Positions 7,387 to 53,166 of a stretch of 64,000 nt of DNA are shown one piece after another. The number at the start of each line of letters is the position of its first letter. The first letter of the stretch is position 1. Location of the stretch: contig NMRA01000467.1 of NCBI GenBank assembly GCA_002633005.1, positions 255,081 to 319,080 of the forward strand, written 5' to 3'. Source of the stretch: Phoronis australis (taxonomy: Eukaryota; Animalia; Phoronida). The translations under genes were made by a program, and so were the position numbers. Below the pieces are notes generated by a model. The model was not told where the DNA came from, made no database searches, and worked only from the letters and a program-made list of their open reading frames with translations.

Positions 7387-7721
7387 CTACAGTCCCAGAA
7401 ACGTACGTGTTCTCTTGGTACGGTCGAAGTACCGTCTATCGAGGTTGACATTGTGCAGGAAATCTGGAAACTCTTCAAACAGCTCGTTGCAAGCCACGTC
7501 AGGGTGAGTCAACAGGTATGAGATGGCGCCACTGGTACCCTGGGTGGTCATTCCGGTGCCGCCATGACCTTCGCTGGTGATGAAATTTGGCGCCAAGCGA
7601 TAGAAGAGCGTAAAGTTACGATAGTTGATGGAGCGCGGGCAAGGTTTGAAGGATACTACTCCTTGAATACGATCTCCAAACAGCCTTCGACAGAGAGCCA
7701 TGATGTAAAGCAGATAAGTTC
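7387..7721 (-). CDS. Copy A exon 7 (terminal): GTYLLYIMALCRRLFG...CPRS...EGHGGTGMTTQGTSG...RTFLGL*
   Basis: Acceptor ttccag|GA at 7721 (phase 1) and TAG stop at 7387-7389. DAO-family GHGGxGxT motif at 7546-7569. Confidence 0.9.
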
Positions 7722-10700
7722 CTGGAATTGGAAAGACCGTGGCAATCAGGTAATCATCTTCTCATACGAAATCCGAGACAACCGGAAGAGTATGAATCGC
7801 TCTATGCAGTAATTTTAACTTGCAGGCGTAATCGTAAATATGAGTCACTGCAACACTTTACAGCCCACCTTTATGTAAATAAGTACTCTAGTGACCCAAA
7901 ACTCATCAACACCCAAGAGCACCGGATCACGAATCCTCATATGTACCGTTTTCATTGTCTGAATCAACTGGCTCCGCCCAAAGGCTTACAATTTGCTGTC
8001 ATCAAAATGTTTCCAACACAAAAAGAAAATGTCGAATTATGCCGTGACGGTAGAAAATTGTGGCGAGAAGGGTGTTAGCGAACATTTTAAGACTCAAAGT
8101 GTCGTTGAGTCAATGCATGTTTAGGCTTGGATAAGTTTCGGAGTTCAAAAGTGTATCGACTCCCTGTAGTATTTCAGGAGAGATCGTGTATTTCTATGGA
8201 ATTCCAAGGCTGTCACTTGTTAACTTGTAGCCTTCATTTTGGCGTATTTTTGCAATGCCTCGTTTTTGAAACTTTCAAAGTAAGACTGATTACGTGGGCC
8301 TAATAAATTCACCTGGGAGAACAAAATAATTCATTTTGAGAACATGGAGCGGTACGGTCGGGGATATCTAACGTTGTCGTATGAGGCTTCGATGTTCTGC
8401 AGAGACCAGTGGCCGGTTGCATGAAACAGTCCCAAATAGGGACTCAACCAAGGCCCCTAAGTCCTTTTGCGTATTTGTGTCTTTATGGAGTCACAGATGC
8501 AATATTTTTCTATCATTTCATCTTTATTATGAGCTCATCTTTGATTAATGACATTTTCTAATAATATAATTAAAATCTGAGCCCAGAGTTCATTGAAAAT
8601 CAATAGTGACTCAGTACTTAAATTGGGGTTGTTGCATGAAAAGATCCCTAATTATTTTCGATAATGTTGACAATTCAACGTAGAGTTCACTCTCGATTTG
8701 TATCAAAGTCAAAAGTTGACTTGGTAATGAAACTAAAACAACAAAAGAAAGGGCAATCGTTGTTTCCACAAGTCCAAAAATGCGCTGTAGATTTAGGGAA
8801 TTTAGTGAGTCCCTATTTGGGACTGTTTCATGCAACTGGGCACAGTAGGCTACGGATGCACCTAAGTATCTTGTAGCAATCTCGGGCTGTCAGCAATTAC
8901 CTGGCACCCCTCGACTGGCGATGTTCCCTCCAAGCGCAACCTTGACTAGACTGACGTCATCCTTCTCGGAATATGCTATGGGCGTAATGTGAGTAATATG
9001 GTACTCTAACGTTGGAATTCGTCCTTTCAAGAGAATGTACCCCGACACTCCTGGCGCAGTGACGATGTGGTCTGTGGCCTTTCTGGAGCCGAAAAGCTGG
9101 AAATTGAATGTCTGTCGGTTACCTTAGGGAAACAAATCTGGTAAAGCTAGTTGAATACTTGCACTGTTATATCCTGCACTATCACGGAATTAATTTAAAG
9201 TATACATGTAGGTCTAAGGGGAACTCGCAGTTCATGCAGTAGCTGGTTCTATGCCTAAAAGCTACATGTAGATGTCGGGTAAACTCGAGCTCAGTAGGAC
9301 CGTCTCGGATTACACGGCGATAGAGGTCTCCCGTTTTGTCCCGGAGATAACAAAGCGTGTGACCTAGTTTTGGAAAACAGGCACATTGATGTCGGGAAGG
9401 GGGAGAATTTTAGATCAGGCATCCATGGGTATTTATTAAGTTTCTCAAACGTTTTCATGCCGGAGTTGCAGCCGACAGGACAGCCAAGTAGTACTTCGTT
9501 GGCATTGCCGGGAAGAACGAATGGATCGAGTAATACAACAGAGACAAACTTGAAAAGAATAAGGCTGCAACAAATAACATGTTAAACTCCAGTGGCACGA
9601 AAACGAGGCATCAAATGTGCCTGTCGGACGTTTACAGCATTGTGGGTAAAAACAGTGAGATTCGAGTGTTACTGTGCCGGGGACGGACCTATTCATTGGT
9701 CTCTTTATTTTTATTTCTACCCTTAGGGTTTATTTTGTATAACTTATCGATCTATTTATAGCCTCAAGGGTCTACTTTTGTATTCATGCATTCTACTCAA
9801 CACCTGATTGGTCACTCATATTTCCTTTGTTCAGTTCAACGTGGTCTAGCTCATTCAGCCACCATCTCGTCGTCTACAAGACCTACGTTTGTACTCTGGC
9901 TTATAGGACAAGTACAATAATTCATTAAAAACAGTTACTAAGTAACAAACGATGTTTAATGTATTCTATACATTTTTAATTCGACATAGCGACACCTTTC
10001 ACTTCGTGTGAGGTTCCAGATAAGGGAGTCAATTGTCAGGCAAATGACAGCACTGGCGGCCAGAAGGTAGCCAGACTCGAGACAATTTTAGGTAAATTTT
10101 AAGGCACATATTATGCGAAGGCCTTTTTAGGGGTCATCAACGCTGATTGTGGACAAAATTTGGCAACCACTGCGGTCAGGCAGTCACGTGAGATCTTTAT
10201 ATCACGAATGCTCACATACAATCTCTACTTTCAACATTTATTTTACGCAAACACCAGGCCCAGATGTTGGCTTTGAGTCCGTCGGGCAAAAACAACTCGA
10301 AAGGGACCGCGCGGACATCCACCCCCACCCGACGTCTCCTTCCCTTTCGCGCTGGGTTCTCTGCGAACGCAAACCTCCGGCGTGCCTTTTTCTTTGTCTT
10401 ACCCTAGTCGTGACTTCAGTATGTAGATGTCGATCCGGCGAATTCCGCTTACCATTGACGCCTAACAGGTTATCTGCTCAATATTCGACATCAAGACAAA
10501 TGAAACGATGTAAACGTTGATTGATTTTCCAAATTCGAGTGAAACAAATGCGCGGCCTCGGCATTTTACGCGCACCCGTTCGCTGCCCCATATTGTGCTG
10601 CAATAGCGTCTATTCACATTCTGCGAAACCACAACAACTGGGCTGTGCGAGTTCCTCGCTCTTCCCGTTAAAAGCATTTTTATACTAGAGGTAAGTGGCT

Positions 10701-13700: not shown

Positions 13701-16700
13701 TCCCAACTCAAGAATGTAGCACAAGAGCAACTTCCCATGTCTAGCGTAAACACGGCGAAACCTCATTAGTGAACATTAGCTGGTACACATATTTAACACA
13801 TGAGCCTGTCAATTCTTCAACATCAGCATCTAGTGAATGTCAAGTCCTCCATTAGCTTACTCCATGAAAGTCGGAGGAGTTAGTGCAAACGAAACTTCTT
13901 TTGATGTGCACTGACCTGGGCCACTGATCTCATAGTGTAGAGAAACTTCATAAAAGTACTGTGCACATACCTTTCGCAGAAGAGGTGTATCGAAAGTGTC
14001 GTATTCTAGGCGGGCGGAGTAACCAAGCGACAGGATGAGTTTGTCCACCGGCTTGAATTCAGTGTGACCTTTATTTTGTGAAAATATAAGACAAAAGAAT
14101 GGAATTAGCCATCAAGATTGTATGTCTCTTTCAGAGCCATTCCTTTCAAAACTTCACTAAATTGAAATCAGAACATGGACCTCGACTGGTGTGAACATTC
14201 TTAAGCGAGCATGACTTGTAAATTTCATTGACAATTATGCAACGAATAAAGCATACCATCCCTGTCTTTTGTTTCTATGCCGATAACACCCTGGTTACCG
14301 ATGAAGATCTTCTGTATTTCCTGCCCATACGTCCAGTTATGACCAACAGCCTCTACTAACTTCCGGTAGGTGTGGTGGAAGTCTGTGGCAAGACGTGATC
14401 CGTTAGGGTGATCGAAAGCGGTGTGAATTAGAGAACTTTTGTCCCCAAACACTCTTTCAACGAGAGATGCTGGCACGCGGAAACACGGTATGCCAAGAGA
14501 TCTATTGACTTTCTGGTAATGAGTCTCCATTTCGAATGCCTGTGAAGAATCAGTTGTGATGGACCAGCTTTTCTCGAAGTTCCGCGACAAATCCGCTTCT
14601 GACGACTTCAATGCCGGAAGTAAAACGCCACAGGACTGATCTTCCGGAAGGTACTTCTCTGCCCACTTGTCAATCACCTTCAAGACGTTCTTTGTTCCCA
14701 TCGCGTACTTCCGATCATGATACCAATCCGTTCGCTCGAAGTGACTACCACGCATGTGGAGCATGTTGGAAAACAATCTTAGTTCCTCTTTAACCACAAG
14801 TTTGATGTTGTCGTAGACGTCTGCATTAAAAAGGTCTTTGAAGGAAATGTCCACACTTTTGTAACCTAGAGTCCTGGCGTCCTCAATACTCTTCTCCGTC
14901 GGACCGAAACGCCTTGAGAAAAGTCCTTCCAGTAGGCGGTAGCTCCTAAATCGGTAATCTTCGCTGATAGATGTTGCTAAAATTTTGAAACAACAGACGT
15001 GTTCATCCAGTAAACAGAGCTACATGTATACCAACAAAGTGAGTTAATCCTTTCCTGGCGTCATTGGAACACCGGGTGACAACTACCGGTAGTAACGGAA
15101 ACATTTAACTGTTATTAAAAATTTCATAGGCTGCTATAGCAACCTTCCGTCAAAGAAACCAATTTTTATGTAAAACCGGACTGTCGCCATGTTCTTGACT
15201 AAGACGATAAATTTTTGGGCTTAGTTTGAAAGAGCGTTTCGAGCCTTGAAACGGCGCCCGTTACCTGCTGTAACTTGGAAAGAACTGGTACTTCGTATAC
15301 GTATGAAGACTATAGCCGCATAATTTGAGCAGCCGTGACGAACCAATTGATTCAGTTTGTTCTCAAGTAAAAATTGCCACTATTGTTTCCACGCACAGAA
15401 TCCTGTCTAGATCTTATTCATTGACAAACAGTTAACAAGCAAAAAATGTATGAGCTGTCAATTTTTCTAAATCCAGATATCGTATCCAATCTGAGTAAGG
15501 AACACGTTGAGATCGGTTTATAACCTTTAGTGGTCTAGATCAAAAGTTTTTGGTGGAAGGCAGCTTTATAGTCTTTCAGAAAATTGCAACGGGCTAAAGC
15601 AAGTCCGTCATTGGTACAAAACTGAACTGCGTTTTCAATAGAGACAGCTTGACGTTTTGGTGTTGGGACTTCTATGTTTAATTTGGGCAACCCTTTGGGA
15701 CTGCTCAAGACAATACAGAGGAGTGAACGGAGGAATAACCAACACTAATAGACAAAATACCAGTCTTCCGCTCTAGGTCACCAATGACTCGGTTTGTGAA
15801 ACACAATAGTGGAACACCATACATTGATGAACATTCTTACCCAAATGCTCGTGGTAGTTGTAACCACTACCAATGAAATTCGAGTCGGCAGTATCACGTG
15901 CCAAAAACGTGACTTCATCATTGTCCCCATTCTCCCGCGCTCTGACGGCATTGATGACAGCTCCCACCATTGGTCCAGGCCCTCCCGCGTAGAGCACACG
16001 AGTGGGACCTCCTGTTGTTTTCGGGTTCGGTCCTTTGTAACGGCATATTTTAACAGCCTATTTGGAAACAAAATGCCACAAATGTTTTTGGAGTATGTAA
16101 TGGCAGCAACCAGAAAAAGTTATGAAAACGAAACTGGTGACATGTGGTTTTGACTGAAAACCGCTTTGTTGCATAGTATCAACGCAGTAATTTCCGGAGG
16201 TAGAAATGTGTTCTTGCAGATAAGTCGTACCAAATCTCTAAAAATGCTTATATTTGAAAAGGCGATTCAAAGTTAGTGAAAAATACTGTAACTTGTGGTC
16301 TTTGTGTCATAGTTACCACTGTAAGTTGTAGTGGACATCTTAAACGTGTATAAATATGACTTTTCACATTTTTCCGGGTCAGGTGCACACTTCATTTGAT
16401 CAAAATGTTTTCAAACTAATTTTGTTTTCGTACCAAGGTGATGATCGCTAGAGATGGAGGCAACGTCGAAACATAAGTCTTTTCCAGTTATTCACTCTAT
16501 ATTGCCATATCAACACGTAGCGGAAACTAGGTGTTTATTCCTCTGGAAACCATTCTACGTAATACATTATTTCCCGATGTTTCAGAATCAATAACGTTTT
16601 GTTTGCAATTGCACATGAGTTCAGTACCGATACAAACCTTTCGTTTTGGTGGTTCATGGTTTGTCAGGAGAGAAAACGATTCTACTTCATGGGGAAAATT

Positions 16701-19700
16701 CTTCTTGACAAACTGCAGGACTTCTTCGTCACTCGTCACCCAGTTACTGTAAATGGTTCTTTTGTCTTTGATTGCTTGTTCGCAGAACTTCTCTGCGTCG
16801 GCACCTGGTAAATTTGTGGACAAAAATCTGACCTACAAAATCGAGACAACGATTCACTTTTAATGTAAATACTTTATATTAGATTATTTCATACAGGCCC
16901 GTAGCGGGGATGGTTCGAATTTCTAGAACGGTGGACCTTTGATATTTTCCAAAGGTCGAAATTGTAGAGTTTCCAGTAAGGCTCTTCACGCAGCTTAATT
17001 AGGGGGAAGGGAAGTCTGTATACAACGATGACTCTCAGCTCTATGTTCCTGAGATGAGACGGACATGAGGATGTCGTGACGGTGCAAGATTTTATACCAC
17101 AAACATTTATAAAATCTTGCACTGGCAGGTTTTTACGCAACCAATCTAAGACACCTGTGGATGTTTGTCATGGGTCTCAATTGAAGAAAGTATTTTTTAA
17201 TCTTCCCTTTTTGGGTAACATTAGTTGTGTGATCGGCAGGCATGTTTAAAGAATGCTTGGAGCATGTGCACCATATTTGCAACTTGTGACAATCTTTAAA
17301 CCTGTAAATAGACTTTTGTCATTGTCTAGACTAAAAAAACCATTGAGTAATTCTCAAAGAAGTCATGTTGTGTACCAACTCAACTGCAGTGACTGTGAAC
17401 AGTTTTACACTGGAATGACGAACAGGTTTCTTATCATCAGAGAAGGATAAATGGTGGGGCGGAAGAAGACTCGTAAGGGAGTTCCCAGGAAAAGAGTGGA
17501 GTTGTGCCACTGTAAATAGATCNTAATCTATTATTTTCATACACTCTTTGTGCACATTCACAGAGATCATTCAACTATGTTGTTTTTGTACTATAACGTA
17601 TTTCTGGTGTATTATGCAAACAAGCTGCATTTTACACCATTAGTCAATGTTTTAGTCATTGAGGCACAAATTTTGCCCAGTCTCAAGTGTTTTGTGTTAT
17701 TTTTGATGCCTGACAATGCCAGAATAACTTCCTAGTAACATTCAGACTTAGTTTGAATTTTTGTCACTAGGTGTCTCTTTACATTTTTTAAATTTCACTG
17801 TTTACAATTAATTTACAATAGTAAAACATGTAATGTGAGTGTAATATTGTTCAATACAATGGCACTGATGGGACCATGTTACTTGTTTTACAAAAAAGTC
17901 ACCAAAACTGTTGTTTTTACAAATATAAGTTTACTAAGCTCTTTGGTGATTATTTGGTAACTTCAAACTCAAATTTCTCAAAAATGTGCAACTTTATAAG
18001 TGGGAACTTTTTAGATTTTGAAAACACTCTAATAAATGAATTAAAAAACACCAAAATAAAATTGCCCCCCCTAAAGTACTCACAAAAACCATTTTCTAGA
18101 GGCCCTACAAAATCTGGCCCACCGACTAATCATTGCTAAAACAAGCAACACAGGGGCTGTCTTGCGTAAGAGTGGCAGTGGGTGACCCAAGACTGCATGT
18201 TCGAAAGAAAATGAGGATCGTGTTGAGGAACTGATTCAATCCCAGGAGGACAACCCCGGGCAAATCTCTGAGAGAATTCGATAGCTATTTACAAGTGAGC
18301 AAGTCTTCTGTGCAAAGAATGGCAATAACCCTTCAAAAGAATGTAGGTATCACGGAGAGATCAAAATGTTTGAATGAAAACTCAAAGTAGATACTTGCAT
18401 GACCACTATTCGGCCACAGATGTGAAAAGAATCATTTTCATTGATGAAAAGACTTTACACTCGAAATCGCTAAAAATCGCCAAACCGACCGTGTTCTTGG
18501 GATACAAAAACGAGATATTTAGCCTTTTCGACTCTATCATGAGAATTCCAGGTTTTTGAAAAATAAGGATTTCCGGTGGAGTATCGTAGGACAGAAAAAC
18601 AAATGTTCATTTTATTGACACTGATACGGCCAAAGTTGTAGGATGTATGCAGTTAATGGATAAAAATCTTCTCCCGGATTGCAGGCGACTGAATCCTTGA
18701 AACAATTAGGTGTTTCAGTAAGATGGGGCTCCTTTTTCACACGCAATCAAGATAAGCCAGGCTCATTTGGAGTAAGCAAGATAAGCCAGGCTCATCTGGA
18801 GTAAGCAAGATAAGCCAGTCTCATCTGGAGTAAGCAAGATAAGCCAGTCTCATCTGGAGTAAGCCACAACAAAATACATCAAAAAGGATGAGTGGCCTCC
18901 GCTCAATCCTGACTGCAATCCAACGGACTGTGCCAAAAGGAGAAAGTTTACCAGGGGAATGAGAGACAAATCGACTGAGCAGGAATGAAGTCAGTTTATC
19001 ACGGGAGGAAATCTCGATAGCAGAAATGCGGAAAAGCATTTCTGGTTGGTAGAAACGGCTGCGTTTAGTCGTGGAGGAAGGTGGAGGCCACATAGAGCAT
19101 TAACTGAAATGAGCGAGCTTTCTTTTTGACCTAATGTATTTAACTAGACAGTACTCGCCCAATTGGACGCAGATCTCTCAGATATTTTGCTCATTTGTTG
19201 ATGATGTCCTAAGGTTCATCTGTAAGAAATTTGAAAAAATCAGTTTATCAGTTGCTGCGAAATCACTTGTCAAAAATTGGGTCACTTTTTTGGAACACCT
19301 GATACATGTTCATTAGAACGTCGTACGGAAAATTCGCCATCTAATGAGCTAGAATTCTTCATCTAGTTTGCACAAAACATAGTTGTTTGATTTTTACAGA
19401 AGAGCGCTTATTAATATAAAATCTTGATTCTGGCAAAGCATCCGTGATTTGAAAAAACACAAATGACAAAATGTATTATTGTGGGATAAAGCCGAAGACT
19501 TGCCATAACGAATGTGTAAAACAACTGTCACATTAACAATATTCAATAATGAAGTCTTATCATTACCGCCATAATCAAAAACTTCAAAGCCAGCCTCTTC
19601 AATGCCTCTAACACAAGCTTCCGCCCTATATGAGGCCTATACATTGTACTTCTAACACAAGCTTTCGCCCTATATGAGGGCCATAGTCCTTCATCAGGTG

Positions 19701-26115: not shown

Positions 26116-26163
26116 TTTACACCAAATCTTCCTCTTTCAGTATACATTGATATTAGCTCGACC

Positions 26164-26170
26164 ATTTATA
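26164..26170 (-). promoter_or_regulatory. Candidate TATA box (TATAAAT) of copy A
   Basis: Lies 49-55 nt upstream of the ATG and is conserved at identical spacing in copy B (53160-53166). Confidence 0.55.
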
Positions 26171-26914
26171 CTGTCGATAACTGTTGGAAAAGGTCAAATT
26201 ATCTGTCAATATGATGGAAGGCGGAGCCTTGGTTGCGGATTAAAATCTCAGACCATTTCACGGTGAATCATACAAGTTCGGTATTACGAAGACTGTGTCA
26301 GTAATAAATAAATTTACTAAAGCACAACTCTGCAATATGATCAGCACAAGGTTTTTGGAGTAGGGTTGAGAGGAACCCATTATTTTCCATTTGTTTTGTC
26401 TAAAATTGTCACTTTCACCGCCGTGGTCAGTGACGACTTAGTCCGCCACTTTGACATGTGCAATAACGACAAGTCAGCCTGAGGGAATTTGTCGATATTC
26501 AATATTTTAGACATTATAACACTGTACAAACCTTGCGACTAGGAAATGCCCGGACCAAAGAGTCGACTTTTAGAATTTTAAAAACATGCCGAAGAAAGCG
26601 ATAAGTTGGTTAACTTTAAAATAGAAATCTAAGTAATTTCATAACATATGTTGATGGTGAACACGCCGGTATGTACATTACTTACACATTTATGTGTCCT
26701 GCTCACATATGTGTTTTATCATAGATGTAAAACAGGGGGGTCAAAATAGCCAATTCACCATTTTTGACTTGCAATCAGGGATCATTTTAAAAAAACATGC
26801 TTCTGGGTCAATTGACCCACAATTCCTCAAACCTATGGGTCTACTAAGAGAACTTATGGTTCTAGGTTCATTCACCTCTAAGCCATTATTGACACATTTG
26901 TGTTGCATGAATCT

Positions 26915-33607: not shown

Positions 33608-33662
<55 letters not shown>

Positions 33663-33664
33663 CA
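33193..33664 (+). mobile_element. Penelope-like pLTR with ORF start, running into a (CA)n microsatellite
   Basis: From 33456: MPLTLGDLLFQLPSEERHLCRHYESLLNKLTKAKNSLLFNETCMKEGLLPKYT. FN..C..E.LLPKYT is a characteristic Penelope-like ORF N-terminus. It is followed directly by (CA)n at 33610-33664. Confidence 0.65.
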
Positions 33665-35147: not shown

Positions 35148-35177
35148 TTAATAAATGAGAGCATGCTCGTCGCATGG

Positions 35178-35270
35178 AATGGAAAGTGGTGGTAAGTCTA
35201 CTTGTAGAGTGGAAAGTGGTGGTAAGTCTACTTGTAGAGTGGTAAGTGGTGGTAAGTCTACTTGTAGAGC
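35178..35270. repeat. 30-bp tandem repeat x3
   Basis: Unit tggaaagtggtggtaagtctacttgtagag. Confidence 0.85.
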
Positions 35271-36261: not shown

Positions 36262-36632
36262 TCACGCAACTTGCATAGCTCCTTCCAAGGCAGTTGGCTT
36301 CAGCCCCAAAAACGCACGCGTTCTCTTGGTACGGTCGAAATACCGCCTTTCAAAGTCGACATTGTTTAAGAAATCTGGAATTTCTTCAAACAGCTCGTTG
36401 CTAGACACGTCAGGATGAGCCAACAGGTACGAGATAGCGCCACTGGTCCCCTGGGTGGTCATTCCGGTGCCGCCATGACCTTCGCTGGTGATGAAATTTG
36501 GCGCCAAGCGATAGAAGAGCGTAAAGTTACGGAAGTTAATCGACCGTGGGCAGGGTTTGAAGGATACTACTCCTTGAATACGATCTCCAAACAGTCTTCG
36601 ACAGAGAGCCATTATGTGAAGCAGGTAAGTTC
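36262..36632 (-). CDS. Copy B exon 7: GTYLLHIMALCRRLFG...GHGGTGMT...RAFLGLKPTALEGAMQVA*
   Basis: Acceptor ttcccag|GA at 36632 and TGA at 36262-36264. Confidence 0.9.
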
Positions 36633-39600
36633 CTGGGAAAAAGAAATTCAAAAGGCGGTGAAAATCAGCTTCATACGGTATCCGAAACAAATGGGAAAGT
36701 ACGAAACACTCTATCTAGTTATTTTAACTTCCGGTTGTAACCTTAAATATTTTTTCAGGTATTTATTATCATTGATAAACAAGTACAAAAACAAACAAGC
36801 AAATAAGTACATTCATTATTCACGCATGCACATCTCGTAAGAAGTAAAGAACTGCTACATGGAATTCACGTAAACAATAAAATTTTCGCAGAAAAGCTGT
36901 CATATACAAAAATTTTATATCCAATTAATTTTTCAGCATTATAGTACTCATAAGTATATGTAACAAACTTGTGAAAATTAAGTATATTTTTGCGGCATCT
37001 CTCCTTGTAAATGTACAGTTTGGCTAGTAATAATAAAATGTTAAATAGAAAATCATGTGTCTCATAAAGTCCAAGAATAACACTTTCGTAACAGAAACAG
37101 CAGGGAAGCTGAATAAGACACTTTTGAAGTAGTTTTTCTGAATTGACATTCCCAAAAAGGGTGTGACAGCGTCTCTGCAGCATTATTACAAAAAGAGCAT
37201 AAATTAGAATCCTGAAAATGGATTTTGACTAAAAAAGTATTTGTTGTAATAATCCTGTGTAATATTCTAAATTGGAACCATCTAATGTTGTGATCCTTTG
37301 TAGTGTCATAAAGCAATGAGTATATTTTCTTTCAATCTAAACTATCTCCTAACTCTATTTCCCATTTACACTCTGACTTAGAAGATCTCTTGAACAAATA
37401 CATGTATGTCTGCAACCCTTCAAACCTTTCCGTAAGTGAGTAATTCCTTAAGGCATGCAAGGAAACTAGACATTAACACTTCTAAATTTACTTTGAAAAA
37501 GACTTTTGAAACTTTTTTTGAACAGAAACAACACCATTATATTCTACTGAAGTTGGTTTTTACATCGAACCTATTTATCATATGGTTTAAACTAATATAA
37601 CGAAATCGCCATCAGAGGTATACATATCTCTGATAAATCTTAAGCCTTTTACAAACCAAAACTTATAAAAGATACTTGTGCCTCCGATCGCCAAGTTACT
37701 ATTAAACCACAAAGGTTGATTCTCAAAGTTCTTTTCACTAGCAACAAATATTTTCTTATAGAAAGATGTCATACTGCCAAATACGTCGCGCCAGTAGGAA
37801 TTACCAAAGTTAACTTCGACTTAATACAGTCATCTCCAAATAAAGCAAAATTTTTTAAGAACGGGTAGAGTGAGTACAGTAATTCACCACTTTAAGACTC
37901 AGGGCTTTCAAGATATCTGCGAGCCAAGGCAAGTTTTAGAACTTTGCTGAAAGTATGTATATTATTGCCTTTTGAAGTCTCCCTTGATCAGGTCCTAAAC
38001 AGGCAGTAGTTCGTTTAATTTTATCATTACGAACCTGCCATACAAATCTAAAAAATGTCGTATTCAATTCATCGAAGACTTGTACTGGTGGATTTGGTAA
38101 ACTTGACAACAAAAATAAGCTTAGAAATAGCCAACCTTTTAAGTACAGTTACTGTACCAAACGGAGTTAAATTTCGTCGACTACAACTTTTTAATAAAGA
38201 CTTAATCTCGGTTATTCTTGCAGTGAAGTTATTATGCGTCATATTATCCAATTGAGTGTCAAAACCCACCCCCAAAAATCTAAAAGACTTTTTTGTCCAA
38301 GACAGGCTTTCTTTTGTAGGAATCACGTCACCACTACCAGTTTTACTTCCAAACCATATGACTTTTGTTTTATCCACATTCACTTGGAGACCGGAAACAC
38401 TAACAAACAAATATAGTACATTCAATGTGCTAGTCAATGACAAATTCGACCCATCCAACGTAATTGATGTGTCGTCCGCATATTGCAAAATCAAATATTC
38501 CTTATTTCCTGCAACTACACCAGCAATATTTTTTATTATTCTTGATTAAGCACGCCAAAATCTCCGCGCACAATGTGAAAAGGTAGGGAGACAAAGGGTC
38601 ACCTTGTCTGCAGCCACGCGAAATATTGAACCAGGAAGATGGGCTACCATTTACGACAACTTAATATTACTATAAAAGACTTTGACCCACCTTCTGATGG
38701 ACCAACCAAAATTAAGGAAAAATATTTTTTTAATAAAATTCCACGATAATGAATCAAATGCTTTCTCAAAATCAATCAGTAAAAGCAAACCTGGTTTCTT
38801 AGCTGCCTGGGCGTAAAACATTAAATCATATAGCACGCGGATATTTTCGTTCATATTTCTTCCGGAAACCTGTCTGGTACTTATTGATTAGTTTTCCCAA
38901 AACGGATTTTAACCGTTCAGCCACAGCCGAAGAAGCCAATTTATATGTCACATTGAGTAAGGATGTGGGTCCTCAGTTTTTCTAATAATGTTTACTTATA
39001 TCTGCTGCCTTAGGGATGCAAGTAATCACCCCCCCCCCTTTCTGTGTTTATGATAACTGACCAACAGCAGAACCAGTATTAAGTGAGTGACCCACGAAAT
39101 GTCCAATATCAGCCCCAAAAAAATCCACTGAAAAACCTCTGGAGCCTGGGCTCTTATTGTTTTTCATTTTTTCATGTGTGACTTCTTCATATGTAAGAAT
39201 ACCTTCTATTTTTTTCTTTTTCTGTCCCACTCAGTTTGGGGACACAAACCTTATCAAGAAGAGTTTCTAAAGCAGAATTAGAATTTAAAATTTCTACATT
39301 TGTTTAGATTTTCATAAAAATGTTTTGGTTTTCTGATTAACCTCTTCTTCACTATCGGTTTTAGTATTGTCAGATTTCCACAAAAAATGCATAGATTTGC
39401 TTGTGTAATGCCTATTTTCCAAGTGAAGAAAATATTTGAAAGGTTTTTCACCTTCCATATAGGAAAGAAAAACAAAGTGAACAATGGATACGCCTATCTA
39501 CCGGTCTCTATGCTACAAGCTTGCGACGTAGTTTCCCGTGGGCGTCATTACGTATTTGTTTTTTGCACCGAAAATTTCACTCTTTCGTTTTGGCTTAGAC

Positions 39601-42600
39601 CAATATGTTCCGCTTTTTATCATGAAGTCCCGCTTTTCAATCCAGTTGCTCCGTTTTTTTGGTTCTGGAAAGTTGACCGTGGCAGCATGGCAACAGGTGC
39701 TTAAAATAACATTCTCTTTTTTGTAAATGTTGTTATTTTTAAGAGCCCAATTTCTTTACAAGCATAACAATCGTAAAAATGTGTTCAATGTGTTCCAATA
39801 TTTCTTGTTTAAACCAGCGCTATTACACTTATCAGAATATCTTATTTTTACTTTCTGAAGAAAAGAGTTTATTTCTAAACTTTTATCAAGTCCTGCAAAG
39901 CAACCAATGTGATGAGCTATCCACAGTTCATTTTAAAGCACATTTTATCAATCAAAAATCCTTTATTTGCAAATTTAGGAAAGACACGTGTTATTGTTTA
40001 TCGCATTCTTCGTACATGTCAGTGAATTCTGAATTTTTACTGACGAAGGCAATTGTATCAAACGACACCAAAGATCCAAGTAATTATAGTATATAAAGGT
40101 GTATAGTTTTTAATGAATGCCTGACTAAATTACCCATTACAAGTGTGACGGATCCAAATGCTAAAACCATTATTTTACAGGGTAGAAATCTGTTGAATCA
40201 TTGAAACTATTACCCTAATGGCTTACCTTGTCCTTTATATTACCTCTCTGGTTCACTTGGTTGTTTGTTTTTCGTATTTTGGTAATACTCTTGGTTTTTA
40301 GAATGAAAAAAATATACCAGTCAGGTATTCGAAATGACTGTTACTTTTGAATTAAATTATTTATCGTTTGCTTCTGGTATAATCATCAAGAATTGAGAAA
40401 GGTCTGTCTAATGATATGGCTCCTACGCAAATCGGTTGAAAAACGGCAGAGTTGCGAAAAGTTTTAATGACAGCAACTTCCCTAGCTAGTGCACACACCG
40501 GAACAAACCAGTGCAGCCAACTCTCACGCATGCGCGGCGAAACCTCAGCGGCTGCGAGATAGGAGTTGGCATTCCAGGCGTGCGTTCAGTAGACGCTAGG
40601 ACCTACGCTAGGACCTAACTAAAACCTAGTCAAAGTCACGTGTTCTTATTTAAAATGCACGGCAATATCTCACGCAATCTCGCGAAGTCTTGCTTTTTAG
40701 CGAGGTCCTAGCGTTACTGAACGGGAGGAAGGACTAGAGTTAGCGGAGAACGAAATAATTTGTTGCGAGCGGCGAGGGACAGCCTAAATAAGGTTGTCTG
40801 AATGAGACCAGTTCGGCGGATCGGTGAACCTTAGCAAACACCAGATCCCAGACCCGGGCATGCAGTTACCTGGCACCCCTCGACTGGCGATGTTTCCTCN
40901 GCATGCGCGGCGAAACCTCAGCGGCTGCGAGATAGGAGTTGCGTTCAGTAGACGCTAGGACCTACGCTAGGACCTAACTAAAACCTAGTCAAAGTCACGT
41001 GTTCTTATTTAAAATGCACGGCAATATCTCACGCAATCTCGCGAAGTCTTGCTTTTTAGCGAGATCCTAGCGTTACTGAACGGGAGGAAGGACTAGAGTT
41101 AGCGGAGAACGAAATAATTTGTTGCGAGCGGCGAGGGACAGCCTAAATAAAGTTGTCTGAATGAGACCAGTTCGGCGGATCGGTGAACCTTAGCAAACAC
41201 CAGATCCCAGACCCGGGCATGCAGTTACCTGGCACCCCTCGACTGGCGATGTTTCCTCCAACCGTGACCTTGACCAGACTGACGTCATCTTTCTCTGAGT
41301 ATGCTATTGGCGTAATGTGGCTAATATGGCACTCCAACGTTGGAATTCGTCCTTTCAAGAGAATGTACCCTGACACCCCTGGCGCCGTGATGATGTGGTC
41401 TGTGGCATTTTTGGAACCGAAAAGCTGGAATTTGAACTTATATCGGTTACCTTAGATATCACAGAGGGGAAATTACATGAACTAATTTAATACTTGCTCC
41501 CTTAGTTCCTTCACAACCACGGAATTACTTGGAATATCAAACTTAGTATATGCAAGCCTAATGACAATTCGGTAGATGGCGCTAGTGCATCAAGTGGCCT
41601 GAAAATTTATGTTTCCTGGACCTACCTTTGGTGGTCGGCTGCCTAAACGTTAAATGCCGGCACAAAACATCTTTACTGTAGGTATCAAAACTTAAGCTGG
41701 ATATTCAGTAATTGTTGCAGGGGCGTGGCTTAGTGCCACTCGAGTGTCAGAACACTAAATCTACATGTAACCTACATGTAGGAGCGAGATAAACTAATTC
41801 ATGCCAGAGACTAACTAGTAAGGGGCTCCAACCTATTCTGACTAACGATTGCATGGTCATAAAATGACGTTTAGTTACCCAGAAAGGACGGGAGACGGCG
41901 CAGATTCGATCATTTACATTTTGAATTCCACACGACACCTTTATAGGCTTAGTCTCTGCGTGCACTGCGCTGATAATAGATTGTATTAAATGCCCAGCAC
42001 TCATGCAAACCTTGTCCTATAGAGTGCACAGCCCTCGGATTATACTGCTTCTAGGATATTAATTAGAATAATTCAAAATGTGTAGAAAAATAACAAAAGA
42101 ACAAAGAATGTTTGACGTCTTGTGTACGGCTATTATAAGTGCGACATTCGTGGCACGTTTCGGGCTAGTTACAAGATTTTCCACATAAGGATGGTAACAT
42201 AGTCAGAAAGTTGACTGTATTTTCGGCTTACGCGAATTCGACTGTTGGATGTTGGCTGGAAATAAATTAAGCACGGGACAACTAGGTAAATTTTAAGGCA
42301 TATATTTTGAACAATGAGAAAGCCCTTTTGCGTGTCAACAATGCAGACTATTGGAAAATCTTGGGCCATCGCTTACAATTATCTAATCAGGCAACCATGT
42401 GAGACTTTCACCCACCAAATCTCCACATGCTGATGAAGTGATTTTTACTTTTAACAAATTTAGATATTAAAAAGGAGCTTAATTCTTCATCAGCACCACC
42501 TAATGAATGACAAGTCATCCATTAGCGTACTCCACGGAAGTCAGAGGAGCTAGTGTAAAAAAATTCTTTTGATGTGCATTGACCTGGGCCACTGATATCA

Positions 42601-45600
42601 TGACATTGGGAAAGTTCAGAAAATCTCTACACATACCTTTCGCAGAAGAGGTGTATCGAAAGTGTCGTATTCTAGGCGGGCGGAGTAACCAAGCGACAGG
42701 ATGAGTTTGTCCACCGGCTTGAATTCAGTGTGACCTTTTGTGAAAAGATATGACAGGAACGGAATAAGCCATTAAAATGTGTTTCTCATCCAAAATCCAA
42801 AAATATTTCCGCAAAATCATGATAAAAAGGCGCTGGTATGCATCCCTTTTGCGATTTCGCTTTGAAACTAGAACATGATCCTCCGCTAGGAAAAGCATTC
42901 TTAAATAATTTTATAGGCAATTAAACAACAAATGAAGATTTTAAAGCATACCCTTCTTGTCGAGAGTTTCAATGCCGACAACACCCTCGTTATCGACGAA
43001 GATTTTCTGTATTTCCTGACCGTATGTCCAGTTATGACCAACAGCCTCTACTAACTTCCGATAGGTGTGGTGGAAGTCTGTGGCCACACGCGATCCGTTA
43101 GGGTGGTGAAAAGCGGTGTGAATTAGTGGACTCTTGTCTCCAAATACTCCTTCAATGAGAGATGCAGGCACACGCGAATACGGAATGTCGAGAATTTTGT
43201 TGACGTTCTGGTAAAGGGTCTCGAGTTCGCATGCCTGTGGAGGGTGAGTGGCGAGAGACCAGCTGGTGTCGTAGTTTCGTGACAAATCCGCTTCAGCAGA
43301 CTTCAATCCCGGAAGTAGAATACCACAGGACTGATCTTCCGGAAGGTACTTCTCTACCCACTTGTCAATCACTCTTAAGACGTCCTTTGTTCCAATCGCG
43401 TACTTCCGGTCATGATACCAATCCGTTCGCTCGAAGTGGTTACCACGCATGTGGAACATGTTGGAAAACAATCTTAGTTCCTCTTTAACCATAAGTTTGA
43501 TGTTGTCGTAGAAGTGTGCATTGAAAAGGTCTTTCAAGGAAATGTCGACGCTTCTGTAACCTGGTGTTCTGGCGTCCTCAATGCTCTTCTCCGTCGGACC
43601 GAAACGCCTTGAGAAAAGTCCTTCCATTAGACTGTGGCCCCTGAATCGGTAATCTTCGTTGATACATGTAGCTAAAATTTTGAAACAACAGAAGTGCTCG
43701 TACAGTGAACATAATTAAACCAAGAAAGTGATAAAGCGTTTAACCCATTCATGGCGTCGTGGCACTTGGAACGCTTGGCCATCTGATAATCAATATTCCT
43801 AACAAGGTTTTAAGCTGCTATAAATTTTTTCTTTAGACTACTTACAACGCTGTCAGACAAGTGTCAGCACAACCCTAACTTAGACGAGAAATGATATCTG
43901 GGTTTGGAAAGAACAGTTGATACGGCGCCTAATTACCCTAATTAGAAAGAATTTAGAGGCAGTTCGTATATTACTTGAGATTATCGTCGCCACATAAAAT
44001 GAGTAGCCGTGGCAAGTCAACTTATTCATTGACAAACAGAAAAAGTAAGCAGTCAATTTATCGAGACCCAGAAATCATATCTAATCTGAGTAGGCCCTAA
44101 GGAGCGATAAGTGATCTAAATCAAAAGTTACTTTTTGATAGAGGGCTGATTTATAGTTAGCATAAGAAAACTGTAATGAGCTAAAACAATTCTGACATTG
44201 GCACAAACTGAACTTTTTTGATAGAAACACTTCCATATTTTGGTAAGTGTCCGAATTCTTAATGCGGGGACATTCGTTGGGATCATTATCACAAGCCAAT
44301 ATAAAGGCGTGCACAGAATAATTAACACCAACGACCCTGCCTGTGACAATTAACTAATTAATTAGGTTTGACTCATTGGCTACTCGTAAAGTACGACACA
44401 CAATGGGAGAACATCAAACAGTCGAGAACATTCTTACCAATATGCTCGTGATAGTTGTAGCCACTGCCAATGAAATTCGAGTCGGCAGTATCACGTGCCA
44501 AGAACGTGACTTCTTCATTATCCCCCTTCTCTCGCGCTCTGACGGCATTGATGACTGCTCCCACCATTGGTCCAGGACCCCCCGCGTAGAGCACACGAGT
44601 GGGCCCTCCTGTTGTTTTCAGGGTCGGTCCTTTGTAACGGCATATTTTCACAGCCTATTACATTGAAACAAAAATACCAGAAATATTTTAGTTAGTAGTG
44701 ATGACATCAATCTGAAAAACAATGAAATGTTCACTGGTGTTCACGATTGAAAACTGCTGTGTTGCGTAGTTATTCTATGCGAAGACATGTAAGTGGCCGA
44801 CTCAGCATGTTGATAACAGTATCAACGCTGGTAACTTCCGAAGGTAGAATTTGTCCTCTTAGATAAGTCGTACCAAAATCGTTGGATAGGCTTATTTGCG
44901 AAAAGGCCGTGCAAAAAGTAGTACTTGTAGCTTTGATAATACCTACATGTAAAACCTCTGAGTTTTGGCGGACATCTTTAACGTATATGAGCGCTAGCAG
45001 GCCGAGACGTACCTCTTATTTTATGAAGCGTAGCCCCGTTATCAAACTGAATTTGTCTGGGAACGTCTGCATTAATTGCCAAGTTGATATTAGCGAAAGG
45101 CGGAGGCAACATCGAAGGGTGAGTCTTTAAAGTAATACATTCTGTAGATTGCCGTATCAACACTTATCGGAAAGAAGCTGTTGTTCAACTGCAAACCATT
45201 TCTTCTTAGTAATCCCCGATGTTTAGTAGCAATAACGATTTGTTTGCAGTTAGTTCAGTAGCGGTACAAACCTTTCGTTTGGGTGGTTCATGATTTGTCA
45301 GGAGGGAAAACGATTCAACTTCTTCAGGAAAATTTGTCTTGGCAAGTCGCAAGACTTCTTCGTCACTCGTCACCCAGTTACTGTAAATGGTTCTTTTGTC
45401 TTTGATTGCTTGTTCGCAGAACTTCTCTGCGTCGGCACCTGGTAAATTTGCGGACAAAAATCTGACCTACAAAATCGAGACAATGACTCATTTGAACGTT
45501 GATAATTTATATTAGATATTTCACATTTCGTTAGGCAACAAGGGCGAAGTGTTCAAAACGCCTTAATCGAGCACTGTCGATTTTACGATCGACATAGTTC

Positions 45601-51600: not shown

Positions 51601-53111
51601 TTGTCTGGTATCCGTTCTGAATGACGACGCCAATACTGTCGTGTGATGGTTGAGAAACTGTAGGAAAGGTTTTCGAAAATCACCACACTTCTAAAAGTTA
51701 ACTCGAGCGAATGAGGCTGTAATCGTGACCTGAAGCGCCATCTAATGTACAACTAGATAGTCCTTTAAGGAACGTGCGATCCTTTTGTAGAGCACACAAT
51801 ATATTTTAACTAGAACATTTGAATTGTCATGTTTGAAAGTCGGCGTAAGCAAAATTAATTCGTATGCCATGTAGCAAATAATTTCTAGTAAACGTGTGCG
51901 TATTTGCGTGTAGTAGTAGGTAGCTACTCCCTTGAGGCCATGAAAAACCACAGCACAGTTGGTTTTAGAATAATTCAAAGGAAAGTGAAGCCTATAAACC
52001 CACGCAACTGTATTACACACATCTGCGCAAGCCAATGAATGCCAAACATTAAGTGAAGGAGATGTGCCAAATCTCTCTCACGAGAAATCCTTTTTACGTG
52101 GATAACCAAATTTACCACTCATTTTCTGTCGCTGCCAATATTTTCATGCCCTATCGTATTTGAAAGCAAGCGTTTTATTAGGCAATACTGACAACTTTGA
52201 TTCAATTTATTGCACCGAATTTTAATTGCTATAATGTGTATCAGTGTTCTGCATTTTCCGGCTTACACACATCACGTGCGAGCTGAGAAGACTTGTCTAA
52301 ACTGTCAAACATGAATTCAGGGTGAAGGGCGATTAAAATCAAGTGAGCTCACTTGCAGTTGAATAACAACACCATATCACACTTTCAAAATACAAGATGC
52401 GCAAATTTACCAAAATACGTAAACAAATATAAAGAAACTGGGATTAGTTCCAACATCAATCAGTGTTCAGAAAGTTGGGTTGGTTCAATACATATATTGT
52501 AAGTTGATAATTCCTTGGTAAGTCAACTGGTATGGTTTCCCTATATTTATAAATATGTCTAAGGTGTCAAAATATTATACAAAAATTAGCATGTGCTTAA
52601 ACAATGACACCTGGTTGTGACGCCATAAATTACTTTTGCCATCACACTTAGTAGTTAGCCTAATTTGGGATAAAGTCTCACGAATCATTCTTAAGCAGAA
52701 GTTTTCTTCCACACTTTTGGACTTGTCTGAACAGTCTGGTCGTCCGTTGTGCAAGCAAAAACTGCGTAAGAACACGTAGAGCCACGTTGTGACTAACCTA
52801 CGCATTAATGTTGTGATTGCGTTTTGACGGGTTACCGCATTTAATTACCTTCAAATTATATTTGTTGCTATTTGTTGTGATCCAATTTTGATATTTCTGT
52901 TATTCATAAACTTTCCAAAATTGTAAGCATTAAGTGATATTTTCAGTGCACCAATTCGTGCCTTACAAGAGGTTAAACTCGTTATAAACATGATTTTGCG
53001 TCAAGTAAAATAACGATCCGAAAAGTTGAAACTACTCACTCTCTGTCCACTAATCACCGGAATGGTGTTCCAAGTTCGACGCACGTTAAAGAGTTGAATT
53101 CGCCCAGCCAT
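36262..53111 (-). CDS. Gene copy B: 7-exon DAO/DadA-superfamily FAD-dependent oxidoreductase with predicted mitochondrial presequence (622 aa)
   Basis: join(complement 53040-53111, 45272-45466, 44438-44654, 42952-43671, 42637-42734, 41229-41424, 36262-36632) = 1869 nt open frame, with the same splice sites and phases as copy A. Confidence 0.88.
36866..39465 (-). mobile_element. 5'-truncated, heavily frameshifted L1/Tx1-clade LINE ORF2 in copy B intron 6
   Basis: GEKPFKYFLHLENR, NNKSPGSRGF, LLIDFEKAFDSLSW, GCRQGDPLSPYLF, LQYADDT, SGLQVNVDKT, PLWFNS, FQFRILHRIITTN...CSFC...ETLSH.FWEC. Confidence 0.9.
40528..41258. repeat. About 360-bp direct duplication separated by a single N (probable assembly or haplotype overlap)
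   Basis: 40528-40899 versus 40901-41258 with an N at 40900. They differ by a 14-bp indel and a few substitutions. Confidence 0.85.
41229..41424 (-). CDS. Copy B exon 6: LFGSKNATDHIITAPGVSGYILLKGRIPTLECHISHITPIAYSEKDDVSLVKVTVGGNIASRGVP
   Basis: Acceptor ttccag|CTT and donor CCAG|gtaact. 196 nt. Confidence 0.85.
42637..42734 (-). CDS. Copy B exon 5
   Basis: 98 nt, identical in nucleotide sequence to copy A exon 5. Splice sites aag|GT and AAG|gtatgt. Confidence 0.88.
42952..43671 (-). CDS. Copy B exon 4 (720 nt): ATCINEDYRFRGHSLMEGLFSRRFG...VVGIETLDKK
   Basis: Acceptor ttttag|CT and donor AAGG|gtatgc. Includes track ORF 42941-43627. Confidence 0.92.
44438..44654 (-). CDS. Copy B exon 3 (Rossmann segment)
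   Basis: Acceptor aatag|GCT and donor ATTG|gtaaga. 217 nt. Contains RVLYAGGPGPMVGA. Confidence 0.9.
45272..45466 (-). CDS. Copy B exon 2: VRFLSANLPGADAEK...HEPPKRK
   Basis: Splice sites ttgtag|GTC and AAG|gtttgt. 195 nt. Confidence 0.88.
46240..46381. mobile_element. Short MITE with 13-bp perfect TIRs
   Basis: catgggcggcgca (46240-46252) / tgcgccgcccatg (46369-46381). No clear TSD. Confidence 0.6.
47015..48250. repeat. (GAT)n-rich degenerate trinucleotide tract with an assembly gap (N 47223-47567) in copy B intron 1
   Basis: Direct reading. It is the source of the poly-D/M/H/I ORFs in the track. Confidence 0.92.
53040..53111 (-). CDS. Copy B exon 1: MAGRIQLFNVRRTWNTIPVISGQR
   Basis: AAAATGG start and AGA|gtgagt donor. 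72 nt, with two substitutions versus copy A. Confidence 0.82.
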
Positions 53112-53159
53112 TTTAAACCAAATATTTCTCTTTCAGTATAAAATGGTATTAGCGCGAGC

Positions 53160-53166
53160 ATTTATA
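53160..53166 (-). promoter_or_regulatory. Candidate TATA box (TATAAAT) of copy B
   Basis: Same spacing to the ATG as in copy A. Confidence 0.55.

What the first reader, a model, noticed from the sequence alone, without database searches (positions are those of the whole stretch)
7387..53111. Tandem pair of intact, uncharacterised DadA/DAO-superfamily flavoenzyme genes: candidate novel mitochondrial D-amino-acid or imino-acid (opine) dehydrogenase system in an animal
Seen: two complete 7-exon genes (610 and 622 aa) with open frames and conserved splice sites, although their introns have been independently invaded by TEs, which suggests purifying selection. Established: GHGGxGxT near the C-terminus, a GLRP-like motif (CPRS), an AD.VV.A.G-like strand (DKLILSLG) and an N-terminal beta-alpha-beta unit define the DAO/glycine oxidase/DadA fold. 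Canonical animal DAO and DDO are about 350 aa and peroxisomal (PTS1). These proteins are much longer, lack an SKL-type end, and carry a long insertion after SNFIGSG where bacterial DadA has its extra, probably membrane-associated segment. I do not recognise them as FOXRED1, L2HGDH, SARDH/DMGDH or PIPOX. Inference: a patchily distributed, possibly horizontally acquired and since intronised, respiratory-chain-linked dehydrogenase acting on D-amino acids or opines (abundant in marine invertebrates), or a specialised-metabolite enzyme. The substrate is unknown.
Basis: partly seen in the sequence, partly recalled or inferred. Interest (0 to 1): 0.85.

Follow-up and report, generated by a model that had tools for sequence, protein, structure and literature searches.

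The report
Animal genes resembling bacterial D-amino-acid dehydrogenase
This animal carries two intact neighbouring copies of a seven-exon gene, at least one of them spliced and transcribed, from an unnamed protein family that also occurs in a freshwater sponge and is predicted to fold like bacterial D-amino-acid dehydrogenase, so it likely encodes a mitochondrial flavin enzyme that would oxidise an amino or imino acid whose identity is still untested.

Summary
Two tandem minus-strand genes, seven GT-AG exons each, give open frames of 610 and 622 aa, 87% identical, dN/dS 0.23. RNA reads cover copy B's exons on the right strand and span two introns; copy A has only about four reads. The proteins belong, end to end, to an unnamed family (34 full-length homologues aligned, 26-31% identical; the only named one is from the sponge Ephydatia muelleri). 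A homologue's AlphaFold model has the glycine-oxidase/DAO fold (Z 25.5), and the nearest predicted structures of the sponge protein are bacterial D-amino-acid dehydrogenases (DadA), whose insertion lies at the same place. Flavin-contact motifs and the likely carboxylate-binding Arg529 are invariant, but the FAD loop is non-canonical (GGPG[S/P/C]M in 36 of 36, GxGxxG in 0). Only this animal's pair has an Arg-rich, acid-free N-terminal extension, likely a mitochondrial presequence. No bacterial member was found in limited searches, so horizontal transfer is unsupported, and substrate and electron acceptor are untested. Verdict: a real, undescribed, patchily found DadA-like flavoprotein family in animals; a new variant of a known kind.

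The parts
26044..26115 (-). Gene A exon 1 (start codon; most of the presequence-like N-terminus)
   Evidence: in-frame stop 7 codons upstream; not covered by the RNA lays
16638..16832 (-). Gene A exon 2 (family-specific N-terminal extension)
   Evidence: colinear with homologues
15841..16057 (-). Gene A exon 3 (Rossmann unit with GGPGPM loop; SN-x3-SGY motif)
14257..14976 (-). Gene A exon 4 (DadA-position insertion, TDW motif, start of substrate domain)
13971..14068 (-). Gene A exon 5 (SLGY motif); identical to B exon 5 at 98 of 98 bases
8901..9096 (-). Gene A exon 6 (substrate-domain strands, GGNI motif)
   Evidence: no RNA reads on it
7387..7721 (-). Gene A exon 7 (CPR with Arg529, GHGGTGMT, stop)
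   Evidence: about 4 reads in run X1
53040..53111 (-). Gene B exon 1
   Evidence: not covered by the RNA lays
45272..45466 (-). Gene B exon 2
   Evidence: RNA depth in X1, X2
44438..44654 (-). Gene B exon 3
   Evidence: RNA depth and exon 3-4 joint, 3 reads
42952..43671 (-). Gene B exon 4
   Evidence: both flanking joints seen in RNA
42637..42734 (-). Gene B exon 5
   Evidence: exon 4-5 joint, 4 reads
41229..41424 (-). Gene B exon 6
   Evidence: RNA depth, falling to 0.2 in the bin 41410-41557 as expected for an exon edge at 41424
36262..36632 (-). Gene B exon 7 (12 codons longer than A); AATAAA at 36088
   Evidence: not covered by the RNA lays
37065..37331 (-). LINE reverse-transcriptase zinc-finger fragment in B intron 6
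   Evidence: PF13966 E 9e-08

Best explanation
These are two intact tandem paralogues, one shown spliced and transcribed, of an unnamed animal family predicted to have the DAO/DadA flavoprotein fold, and they likely encode a mitochondrial FAD dehydrogenase that would oxidise the C-N bond of a small amino or imino acid, possibly a D-amino acid, and would pass the electrons to the respiratory quinone pool rather than to oxygen. Shown: gene structure, purifying selection, transcription of B, full-length membership in a family that includes a sponge gene. Predicted on homologues: the fold and the DadA-like insertion. Inferred: import by the Arg-rich first ~34 residues; FAD binding by a modified GGPGPM loop together with the invariant SN-x3-S, SLGY and GGTG-x-T motifs; substrate carboxylate held by Arg529; hydride transfer to flavin N5 giving an imino acid that hydrolyses to a keto acid plus ammonia or an amine; peripheral membrane docking by the amphipathic insertion.
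For: Family: a profile of 34 homologues scores the spliced A and B proteins at E 2e-104 and 3e-110 over residues 34-610, colinear; 57 of 95 homologue-invariant positions are kept in both. Fold: P0001 model pLDDT 83.5, pTM 0.87; Foldseek best glycine oxidase 4ysh E 1.4e-13; VIA Z 25.5, rmsd 3.2, 354 aligned, 14% identity; PF01266 in 16 of 34 members. DadA likeness: 8 of the 10 Atlas structure rows for the Ephydatia protein carry automatic names of (D-)amino acid dehydrogenase, aligning 386-416 residues against 365 for the glycine-oxidase row; spacing between the isoalloxazine motif and the next core helix is 21 residues in a ThiO, 70 in E. coli DadA, 102 in A; hhalign 80% to a 13-sequence DadA profile against 60% to a 23-sequence ThiO-like profile; GHGGTG resembles DadA GHG-x-LG (11 of 13). 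Selection is strongest on the FAD region (dN/dS 0.06, residues 107-160) and the C-terminal active-site half (0.14). C527-P528-R529 and G553-G554-T555-G556 in 36 of 36; the equivalent Arg binds the substrate carboxylate in DAO and glycine oxidase (passages of PMC9844085 and PMC3818420). N-terminus: 6 and 5 Arg, no Asp/Glu before residue 36; 0 of 542 and 0 of 554 internal 34-residue windows are acid-free with 5 or more Arg. DadA is a D-alanine:quinone oxidoreductase (passages of PMC9436414, PMC11306353).
Against: GxGxxG in 0 of 36 family members against 13 of 13 DadA and 23 of 23 ThiO-like proteins; no acid at the end of the second strand; Pro-Arg instead of Arg-Pro, while PMC9844085 names GxGxxG and Arg-Pro as the conserved features. 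Pfam matches never include the N-terminal FAD loop (profile positions 52-95 onward). No Pfam hit for 9 single window exons. NCBIfam gives only weak ThiO hits (27 of 34, best E 2.7e-05) and no DadA model. The DadA/ThiO hhalign difference is small, both profiles are shallow, and neither aligned the N-terminal unit nor Arg529 in register, so the Arg equivalence rests on motif position and the model's secondary structure. The Atlas model has mean pLDDT 0.48 and automatic names; no DadA chain appeared among the PDB rows, so the comparison with solved structures does not test it. The folded protein is a 29%-identical homologue, not the window's own. No transmembrane stretch in A or B (best mean 0.96). 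Four homologues have neither a presequence nor a tail, and two end in a PTS1-like CRL. The presequence was judged by composition only.
Confidence: 0.4

Rival explanations
1. An active flavoenzyme of specialised or osmolyte metabolism that cleaves a secondary amine (N-carboxymethyl or N-carboxyethyl amino acid such as an opine, or a natural-product intermediate), as oxidase or dehydrogenase, and not a general D-amino-acid enzyme.
For: Solved structures tied at or near the top include CmiS2 (Z 25.2), iminodiacetate oxidase IdaA (23.9) and a flavin opine dehydrogenase (22.2). Patchy occurrence, tandem duplication here and apparently in another genome (P0037 and P0038 share contig lengths), and 39 nonsynonymous differences in residues 251-400 fit a diversifying tailoring enzyme.
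Against: Z differences reflect shared fold at 11-14% identity and do not tell function. The Atlas neighbours are DadA-type. No pathway gene lies in the 64 kb window.
Confidence: 0.27
2. A non-catalytic or flavin-free DAO-fold scaffold (in the way FOXRED1 is recalled to act in complex I assembly), kept for structure or binding.
For: Broken GxGxxG, no ribose-binding acid, no Arg-Pro; the window's pair departs at 38 of 95 family-invariant positions and sits on a branch of about 6 changes per site (quick tree).
Against: The altered loop is itself invariant across 36 sequences at 26-31% overall identity, as are the other flavin-contact motifs and Arg529; dN/dS is lowest in the FAD region.
Confidence: 0.15
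3. On origin: the family is an old animal or eukaryote resident, kept in sponges and a few other lineages, lost or diverged beyond detection elsewhere, with no recent transfer from bacteria.
For: All 33 profile hits form one family with the Ephydatia gene, with nothing between 688 bits and the cut-off; no bacterial member or 0 of 201 genomes of one phylum. The Atlas feature search lists eukaryotic DAO-family clusters of 541 aa (mostly diatoms) and 477 aa at the same 0.89 score as bacterial ones (leads only).
Against: 29% identity between animal lineages is low for a vertically inherited metabolic enzyme (own knowledge); the lineages use different termini (presequence here, C-terminal hydrophobic stretch plus basic tail in 30 of 34 homologues, neither in 4), as separate acquisitions would give; nearest predicted structures are bacterial. 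The bacterial searches were word- or pattern-limited.
Confidence: 0.5
4. The pair is an assembly artefact (two alleles placed in tandem) or one copy is a dying pseudogene.
For: The scaffold has overlap duplications at single-N gaps; A has few reads and no joint and its stop replaces a Lys codon of B, 12 codons from B's end.
Against: dS 0.28, flanking and intronic identity of 71-82% and unrelated intron insertions are far beyond allelic difference; both frames are intact; B would match only 85% at 7383-7533, below the 93% threshold, so some reads there come from A; homologues P0001 and P0038 end where A ends.
Confidence: 0.05

Closest known systems
Bacterial D-amino acid dehydrogenase DadA (E. 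coli b1189, NP_415707.1)
   Same: Predicted fold; insertion after the isoalloxazine-contact motif; GHG-type C-terminal motif; nearest predicted structures of the sponge homologue.
   Different: About 180 residues longer; insertion 102 vs 70 residues; extra N-terminal extension; no GxGxxG or Arg-Pro; profile match only 80% probability, 14% identity; no NCBIfam DadA hit; spliceosomal introns and a presequence-like leader.
Glycine oxidase ThiO (PDB 4ysh, 1ng3) and relatives CmiS2 (6j38), IdaA (6pxs)
   Same: Best solved-structure matches, Z 24-25.5, about 350 residues aligned; weak TIGR02352 hits in 27 of 34 homologues.
   Different: 11-14% identity; about 200 extra residues; GHGG/GLGG in place of GHxRNG; hits far below the family cut-off of 250.8 bits.
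Animal peroxisomal D-amino-acid oxidase and D-aspartate oxidase (PDB 8hy5, 6rkf)
   Same: Same fold (Z 20.5 and 19.7); GHGG-type motif (YGHGGxG named for DAAO in PMC9844085).
   Different: 12-15% identity, about 335 vs 610 aa, no PTS1 in the window's pair, non-canonical FAD loop.
Flavin-containing opine dehydrogenase (PDB 7fgp) and animal mitochondrial DAO-fold dehydrogenases DMGDH (4pab) and L2HGDH (8w75)
   Same: Same fold (Z 22.2, 19.6, 18.0); precedent for dye- or quinone-linked catalysis, the latter two in mitochondria (own knowledge).
   Different: 12-13% identity; no folate-binding C-terminal domain as in DMGDH; no partner subunit genes in the window.
Ephydatia muelleri Em0023g680a / KAL5457510.1 (hypothetical protein)
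   Same: Same family, colinear over the whole catalytic part, 29-30% identical.
   Different: No N-terminal presequence-like leader; C-terminal hydrophobic stretch and basic tail; uncharacterised (gene id in 0 papers).

Membership tests
DAO / glycine-oxidase flavoprotein superfamily (PF01266) | Two-domain DAO fold over the whole core | tested here: met
   On homologue P0001: VIA Z 25.5, rmsd 3.2, 354 aligned; Foldseek E 1.4e-13; window proteins tied to it by a full-length profile match
DAO / glycine-oxidase flavoprotein superfamily (PF01266) | Pfam DAO score above the curated cut-off | tested here: inconclusive
   16 of 25 homologues scanned pass 27.9 bits; 0 of 9 single window exons hit; the spliced window proteins were not scanned
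DAO / glycine-oxidase flavoprotein superfamily (PF01266) | N-terminal GxGxxG fingerprint | tested here: not met
   0 of 36; replaced by GGPG[S/P/C]M in 36 of 36
DAO / glycine-oxidase flavoprotein superfamily (PF01266) | Carboxylate-binding Arg in an Arg-Pro pair | tested here: inconclusive
   Arg529 invariant in 36 of 36 at the expected place, but as Pro-Arg, never Arg-Pro; residue-level structural register not available
DAO / glycine-oxidase flavoprotein superfamily (PF01266) | Binds FAD and oxidises a C-N bond | not testable with these tools
   needs purified protein
D-amino acid dehydrogenase DadA | Sequence match to the DadA family | tested here: not met
   No DadA model among NCBIfam hits of 34 homologues at E 0.1; hhalign 80%, 14% identity; single-sequence comparison 0.9%
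D-amino acid dehydrogenase DadA | Helical insertion after the isoalloxazine-contact motif | tested here: met
   102 residues vs 70 in DadA and 21 in ThiO; 386-416 residues aligned to DadA-named models (low-confidence query model)
D-amino acid dehydrogenase DadA | Quinone as acceptor, D-amino acid substrate, membrane association | not testable with these tools
   no transmembrane stretch; insertion helix amphipathic (moment 0.63) but not hydrophobic
Glycine oxidase ThiO | TIGR02352 above cut-off; GHxRNG motif | tested here: not met
   best E 2.7e-05; motif is G[H/L]GGTG
Animal DAO/DDO | About 340 aa with C-terminal PTS1 | tested here: not met
   610/622 aa, ends LGL and QVA; 12-15% identity in structural alignment
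FOXRED1, L2HGDH, DMGDH/SARDH, PIPOX orthologues | Clear sequence orthology across animals | tested here: inconclusive
   Exon 4 finds only 3 proteins among 1.84 billion representatives and the family profile no PDB sequence below E 1.5, which a conserved animal orthologue should exceed; L2HGDH and DMGDH 12% identical structurally; FOXRED1 was not compared directly
Flavin opine dehydrogenase | Catalytic subunit with partner subunit genes; opine activity | tested here: inconclusive
   Fold match Z 22.2, below five other enzymes; no partner gene seen in the window; activity untested
Horizontally acquired gene | Nests within a bacterial clade | tested here: inconclusive
   No bacterial member found to build such a tree; tree of 36 rows has no outgroup

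The most novel reading that the evidence does not exclude
Sponges and this invertebrate have an overlooked quinone-linked D-amino-acid dehydrogenase that lets animal mitochondria respire bacterial or dietary D-amino acids without making hydrogen peroxide, using a rebuilt FAD-binding loop, and the enzyme was taken up from bacteria more than once, each time gaining a different targeting signal.
Probability: 0.15. Interest if true: 0.8.

Novelty: new variant of a known kind. Interest (0 to 1): 0.52.

Why it matters
Animal D-amino-acid breakdown is credited to peroxisomal oxidases (own knowledge); a DadA-like mitochondrial dehydrogenase would be a second, energy-yielding route, plausible for animals that feed on or house bacteria. 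Even with another substrate, this is an unannotated enzyme family with a conserved replacement of the GxGxxG loop, present in at least two animal lineages, easy to express and assay. Its value is capped because fold alone does not give the substrate and the transfer story has no support yet.

Tried and rejected
No whole genome is held, so paralogues elsewhere, neighbours beyond the window and this animal's own DAO/FOXRED1 could not be checked. An exon-6 acceptor 22 nt further upstream would break the frame; the downstream acceptor (9096/41424) keeps it and fits homologues and RNA depth. Word-based searches with exon 4 (960 candidates) and exon 7 (57 candidates) for longer proteins found nothing (weak evidence). 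The one exhaustive search used exon 4 alone, the most divergent part, so distant members may be missed. PDB sequence searches with exon 7, P0001, P0035 and two profiles gave no hit below E 0.45. Pattern scans of genome, metagenome and viral contigs: 11, 96 and 246 pattern matches, none confirmed; N-terminal motif scans gave 1, 0 and 6 loci, none a family member by profile. tblastn of plasmids and phages: only E 0.5-0.7 fragments. Global hhalign failed. No RNA holder was listed by the run index; same-species runs were laid instead. A second fold of P0001 with the shallower alignment added nothing (pLDDT 64.5). The careful tree did not finish; the quick tree is quoted. Atlas feature hits are all below 0.9, leads only. 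Literature: 8 searches, judged from listings and abstract starts, showed no description of this family; passages only were read of PMC4729200 (no 'oxidoreductase' or 'FAD' in the main text), PMC4784904 ('oxidoreductase' once, as a Pfam class among sponge transfer candidates), PMC12414876, PMC9844085, PMC3818420, PMC11306353 and PMC9436414. The supplements of PMC4729200 and PMC4784904 were not read and may list a member. No complex prediction was run. Whether the homologues are intronless, and the taxa of 22 of the 23 clusters looked up, could not be determined.

Full report
1. Observation. Six-frame translation finds each quoted motif twice on the minus strand, and a self-comparison pairs the regions 7.2-26.2 kb and 36.1-53.2 kb. 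Reading the splice sites gave seven exons per copy with identical lengths (72, 195, 217, 720, 98, 196 and 335/371 nt), all introns GT-AG, and open frames of 610 and 622 aa. The copies share 529 of 610 residues; dN/dS is 0.23 (95% interval 0.17-0.32), 0.06 in the FAD region and 0.14 in the C-terminal half. Divergence at silent sites (0.28) and in introns rules out alleles. No third copy lies in the window. The window looks animal: long repeat-rich introns, LINE and GIY-YIG fragments, CpG observed/expected 0.90. The species was not identified.

2. Expression. Three same-species RNA runs and one contig set were laid (about a fifth of each raw run). On B exons 2-6, X1 gave 44 reads and X2 7, confined to exons and on the strand expected for a minus-strand RNA; introns 3 and 4 were spanned by 3 and 4 reads, introns 2 and 5 had no listed joint; X3 gave 4 intronic repeat reads and X4 none. 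On A exons 6-7 only X1 showed about four reads' depth on exon 7 and its flank, none on exon 6 and no joint; B is too different there to explain all of them. B is expressed at a low level; A weakly or elsewhere. Exon 1 and B exon 7 were not covered.

3. Family. Single exons hit no Pfam family (0 of 9). Exon 4 against 1.84 billion representatives found 3 proteins (best E 3.8e-08). A profile from these and the window's exons found 33 proteins of 573-758 aa, all at 688 bits or more, among 7994 candidates scored. Of 23 clusters looked up, one carries a species name: Ephydatia muelleri Em0023g680a / KAL5457510.1, hypothetical protein. The other homologues are 42-76% identical to the representative of that cluster; that most are sponge genes is my inference. 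A profile of 34 homologues matches the spliced A and B proteins at E 2e-104 and 3e-110 over residues 34-610 without rearrangement, at 26-31% identity, which also confirms the gene model; 57 of 95 invariant positions are kept. In a quick, unrooted tree the pair lies about 6 changes per site from all 34 others.

4. Fold. P0001 folded with 34 sequences gave pLDDT 83.5, pTM 0.87. Foldseek and VIA both rank glycine oxidase first (E 1.4e-13; Z 25.5, rmsd 3.2, 354 aligned), followed closely by CmiS2, IdaA, proline, N-methyltryptophan, D-arginine, sarcosine and opine enzymes; human DAO is at Z 20.5, L2HGDH at 18.0; identities are 10-15%. PF01266 hits 16 of 34 members, never over its N-terminal loop. 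For the Ephydatia protein, 8 of 10 Atlas structure rows are named (D-)amino acid dehydrogenase and align 20-50 more residues than the glycine-oxidase row, though that query model is poor (pLDDT 0.48) and the names automatic. The insertion lies where DadA has its own: 102 residues between the two flanking motifs, against 70 in E. coli DadA and 21 in a ThiO. Profile comparison leans the same way but weakly (80% vs 60%), and NCBIfam lists no DadA hit.

5. Motifs. Invariant in 36 of 36: GGPG-x-M, S148-N149, S153, H158, D245-W246, SLGY, T472, Y476, K486, C527-P528-R529, G553-G554-T555-G556, T558. PMC9844085 (passages) gives GxGxxG and an Arg-Pro pair as what stays conserved in DAAO and glycine oxidase, and PMC3818420 (passages) places the carboxylate-binding Arg in WAGLRP. 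Here the Arg is kept, but GxGxxG is absent (0 of 36), the pair is Pro-Arg, and the second strand ends in Thr, Asn, Ala or Ile rather than an acid. So the family works like the superfamily by fold, yet fails two textbook fingerprints. Strict conservation of the altered loop argues for a rebuilt flavin site rather than decay; this is inference.

6. Targeting. A and B have about 33 N-terminal residues that the homologues lack, with 6 and 5 Arg, no acid before residue 36 and a moderate hydrophobic moment (0.6); no internal window has that make-up (0 of 542, 0 of 554). This fits a mitochondrial presequence (own knowledge; no predictor was run). Thirty of 34 homologues instead carry a C-terminal hydrophobic stretch and a basic, acid-poor tail, two of them ending CRL; four have neither.

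7. Origin. No bacterial, archaeal or viral member was found: pattern scans over GTDB genomes, JGI metagenomes and IMG/VR, tblastn of plasmids and phages and 0 of 201 genomes of one bacterial phylum. These searches need shared short words or were narrow, so absence is not shown. Equally, no relative surfaced from the annotated animal proteomes that the collection includes, apart from the sponge, so the family is patchy at detectable similarity. Transfer from bacteria remains possible but unsupported; retention with many losses is as likely. An earlier scan finding (e1-633341) is a caution of the same shape: an intron-bearing bacterial-type dehydrogenase that proved an old eukaryotic resident; I did not check it.

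8. Mechanism and verdict. Most likely (0.4): a mitochondrial FAD dehydrogenase acting like DadA, a D-alanine:quinone oxidoreductase (passages), on a small amino or imino acid. Invertebrates do make D-amino acids (passages of PMC12414876), but nothing here picks the substrate. Rivals: a secondary-amine or specialised-metabolite enzyme (0.27), a non-catalytic scaffold (0.15). It is not a member of DadA, ThiO or animal DAO by their defining features; it is an undescribed family of the same fold. Eight literature searches showed no description; two papers' supplements were not read. Novelty: new variant of a known kind. Interest 0.52.

Noticed in passing
window 12017-12775 and 40528-41258: Near-identical 377 bp and 359 bp direct duplications around single N bases at 12399 and 40900, most likely scaffold overlap artefacts; the second copies the last ~40 bases of B exon 6.
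   Followed up: partly
window 13971-14068 and 42637-42734: Exon 5 is identical in both copies (98 of 98) and exon 1 at 70 of 72, while exon 4 is 86% identical: possible local gene conversion.
   Followed up: no
window 7387-7389: A's stop codon stands where B has Lys; homologous sequence continues behind it, so A lost a 12-residue tail.
   Followed up: partly
window 25037-26205 and 47993-53206: Conserved non-coding blocks in intron 1 beside a GAT microsatellite and around exon 1, with TATAAA about 55 nt before the start codon in both copies.
   Followed up: no
window 2522-4392: Broken retroelement pieces on the minus strand: GIY-YIG (Penelope-like, E 3.6e-04, below cut-off) and two reverse-transcriptase fragments (E 8.5e-12, 6e-08).
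   Followed up: partly
window 20917-23734: Complex satellite of about 540-630 bp units followed by a 62 bp tandem array inside A intron 1.
   Followed up: no
homologues P0002, P0006, P0008-P0035 (C-termini): 30 of 34 homologues have a hydrophobic stretch followed by a basic, Ser/His-rich tail ending mostly in RIRL, which looks like a C-terminal organelle-targeting signal; two end in PTS1-like CRL.
   Followed up: partly
homologues P0037/P0038 and P0039/P0040: Two paralogues share contig lengths (40147 and 682431), suggesting a separate tandem duplication in another organism.
   Followed up: no
whole window: TACATGTA occurs 9 times against about 2 expected from base composition.
   Followed up: no
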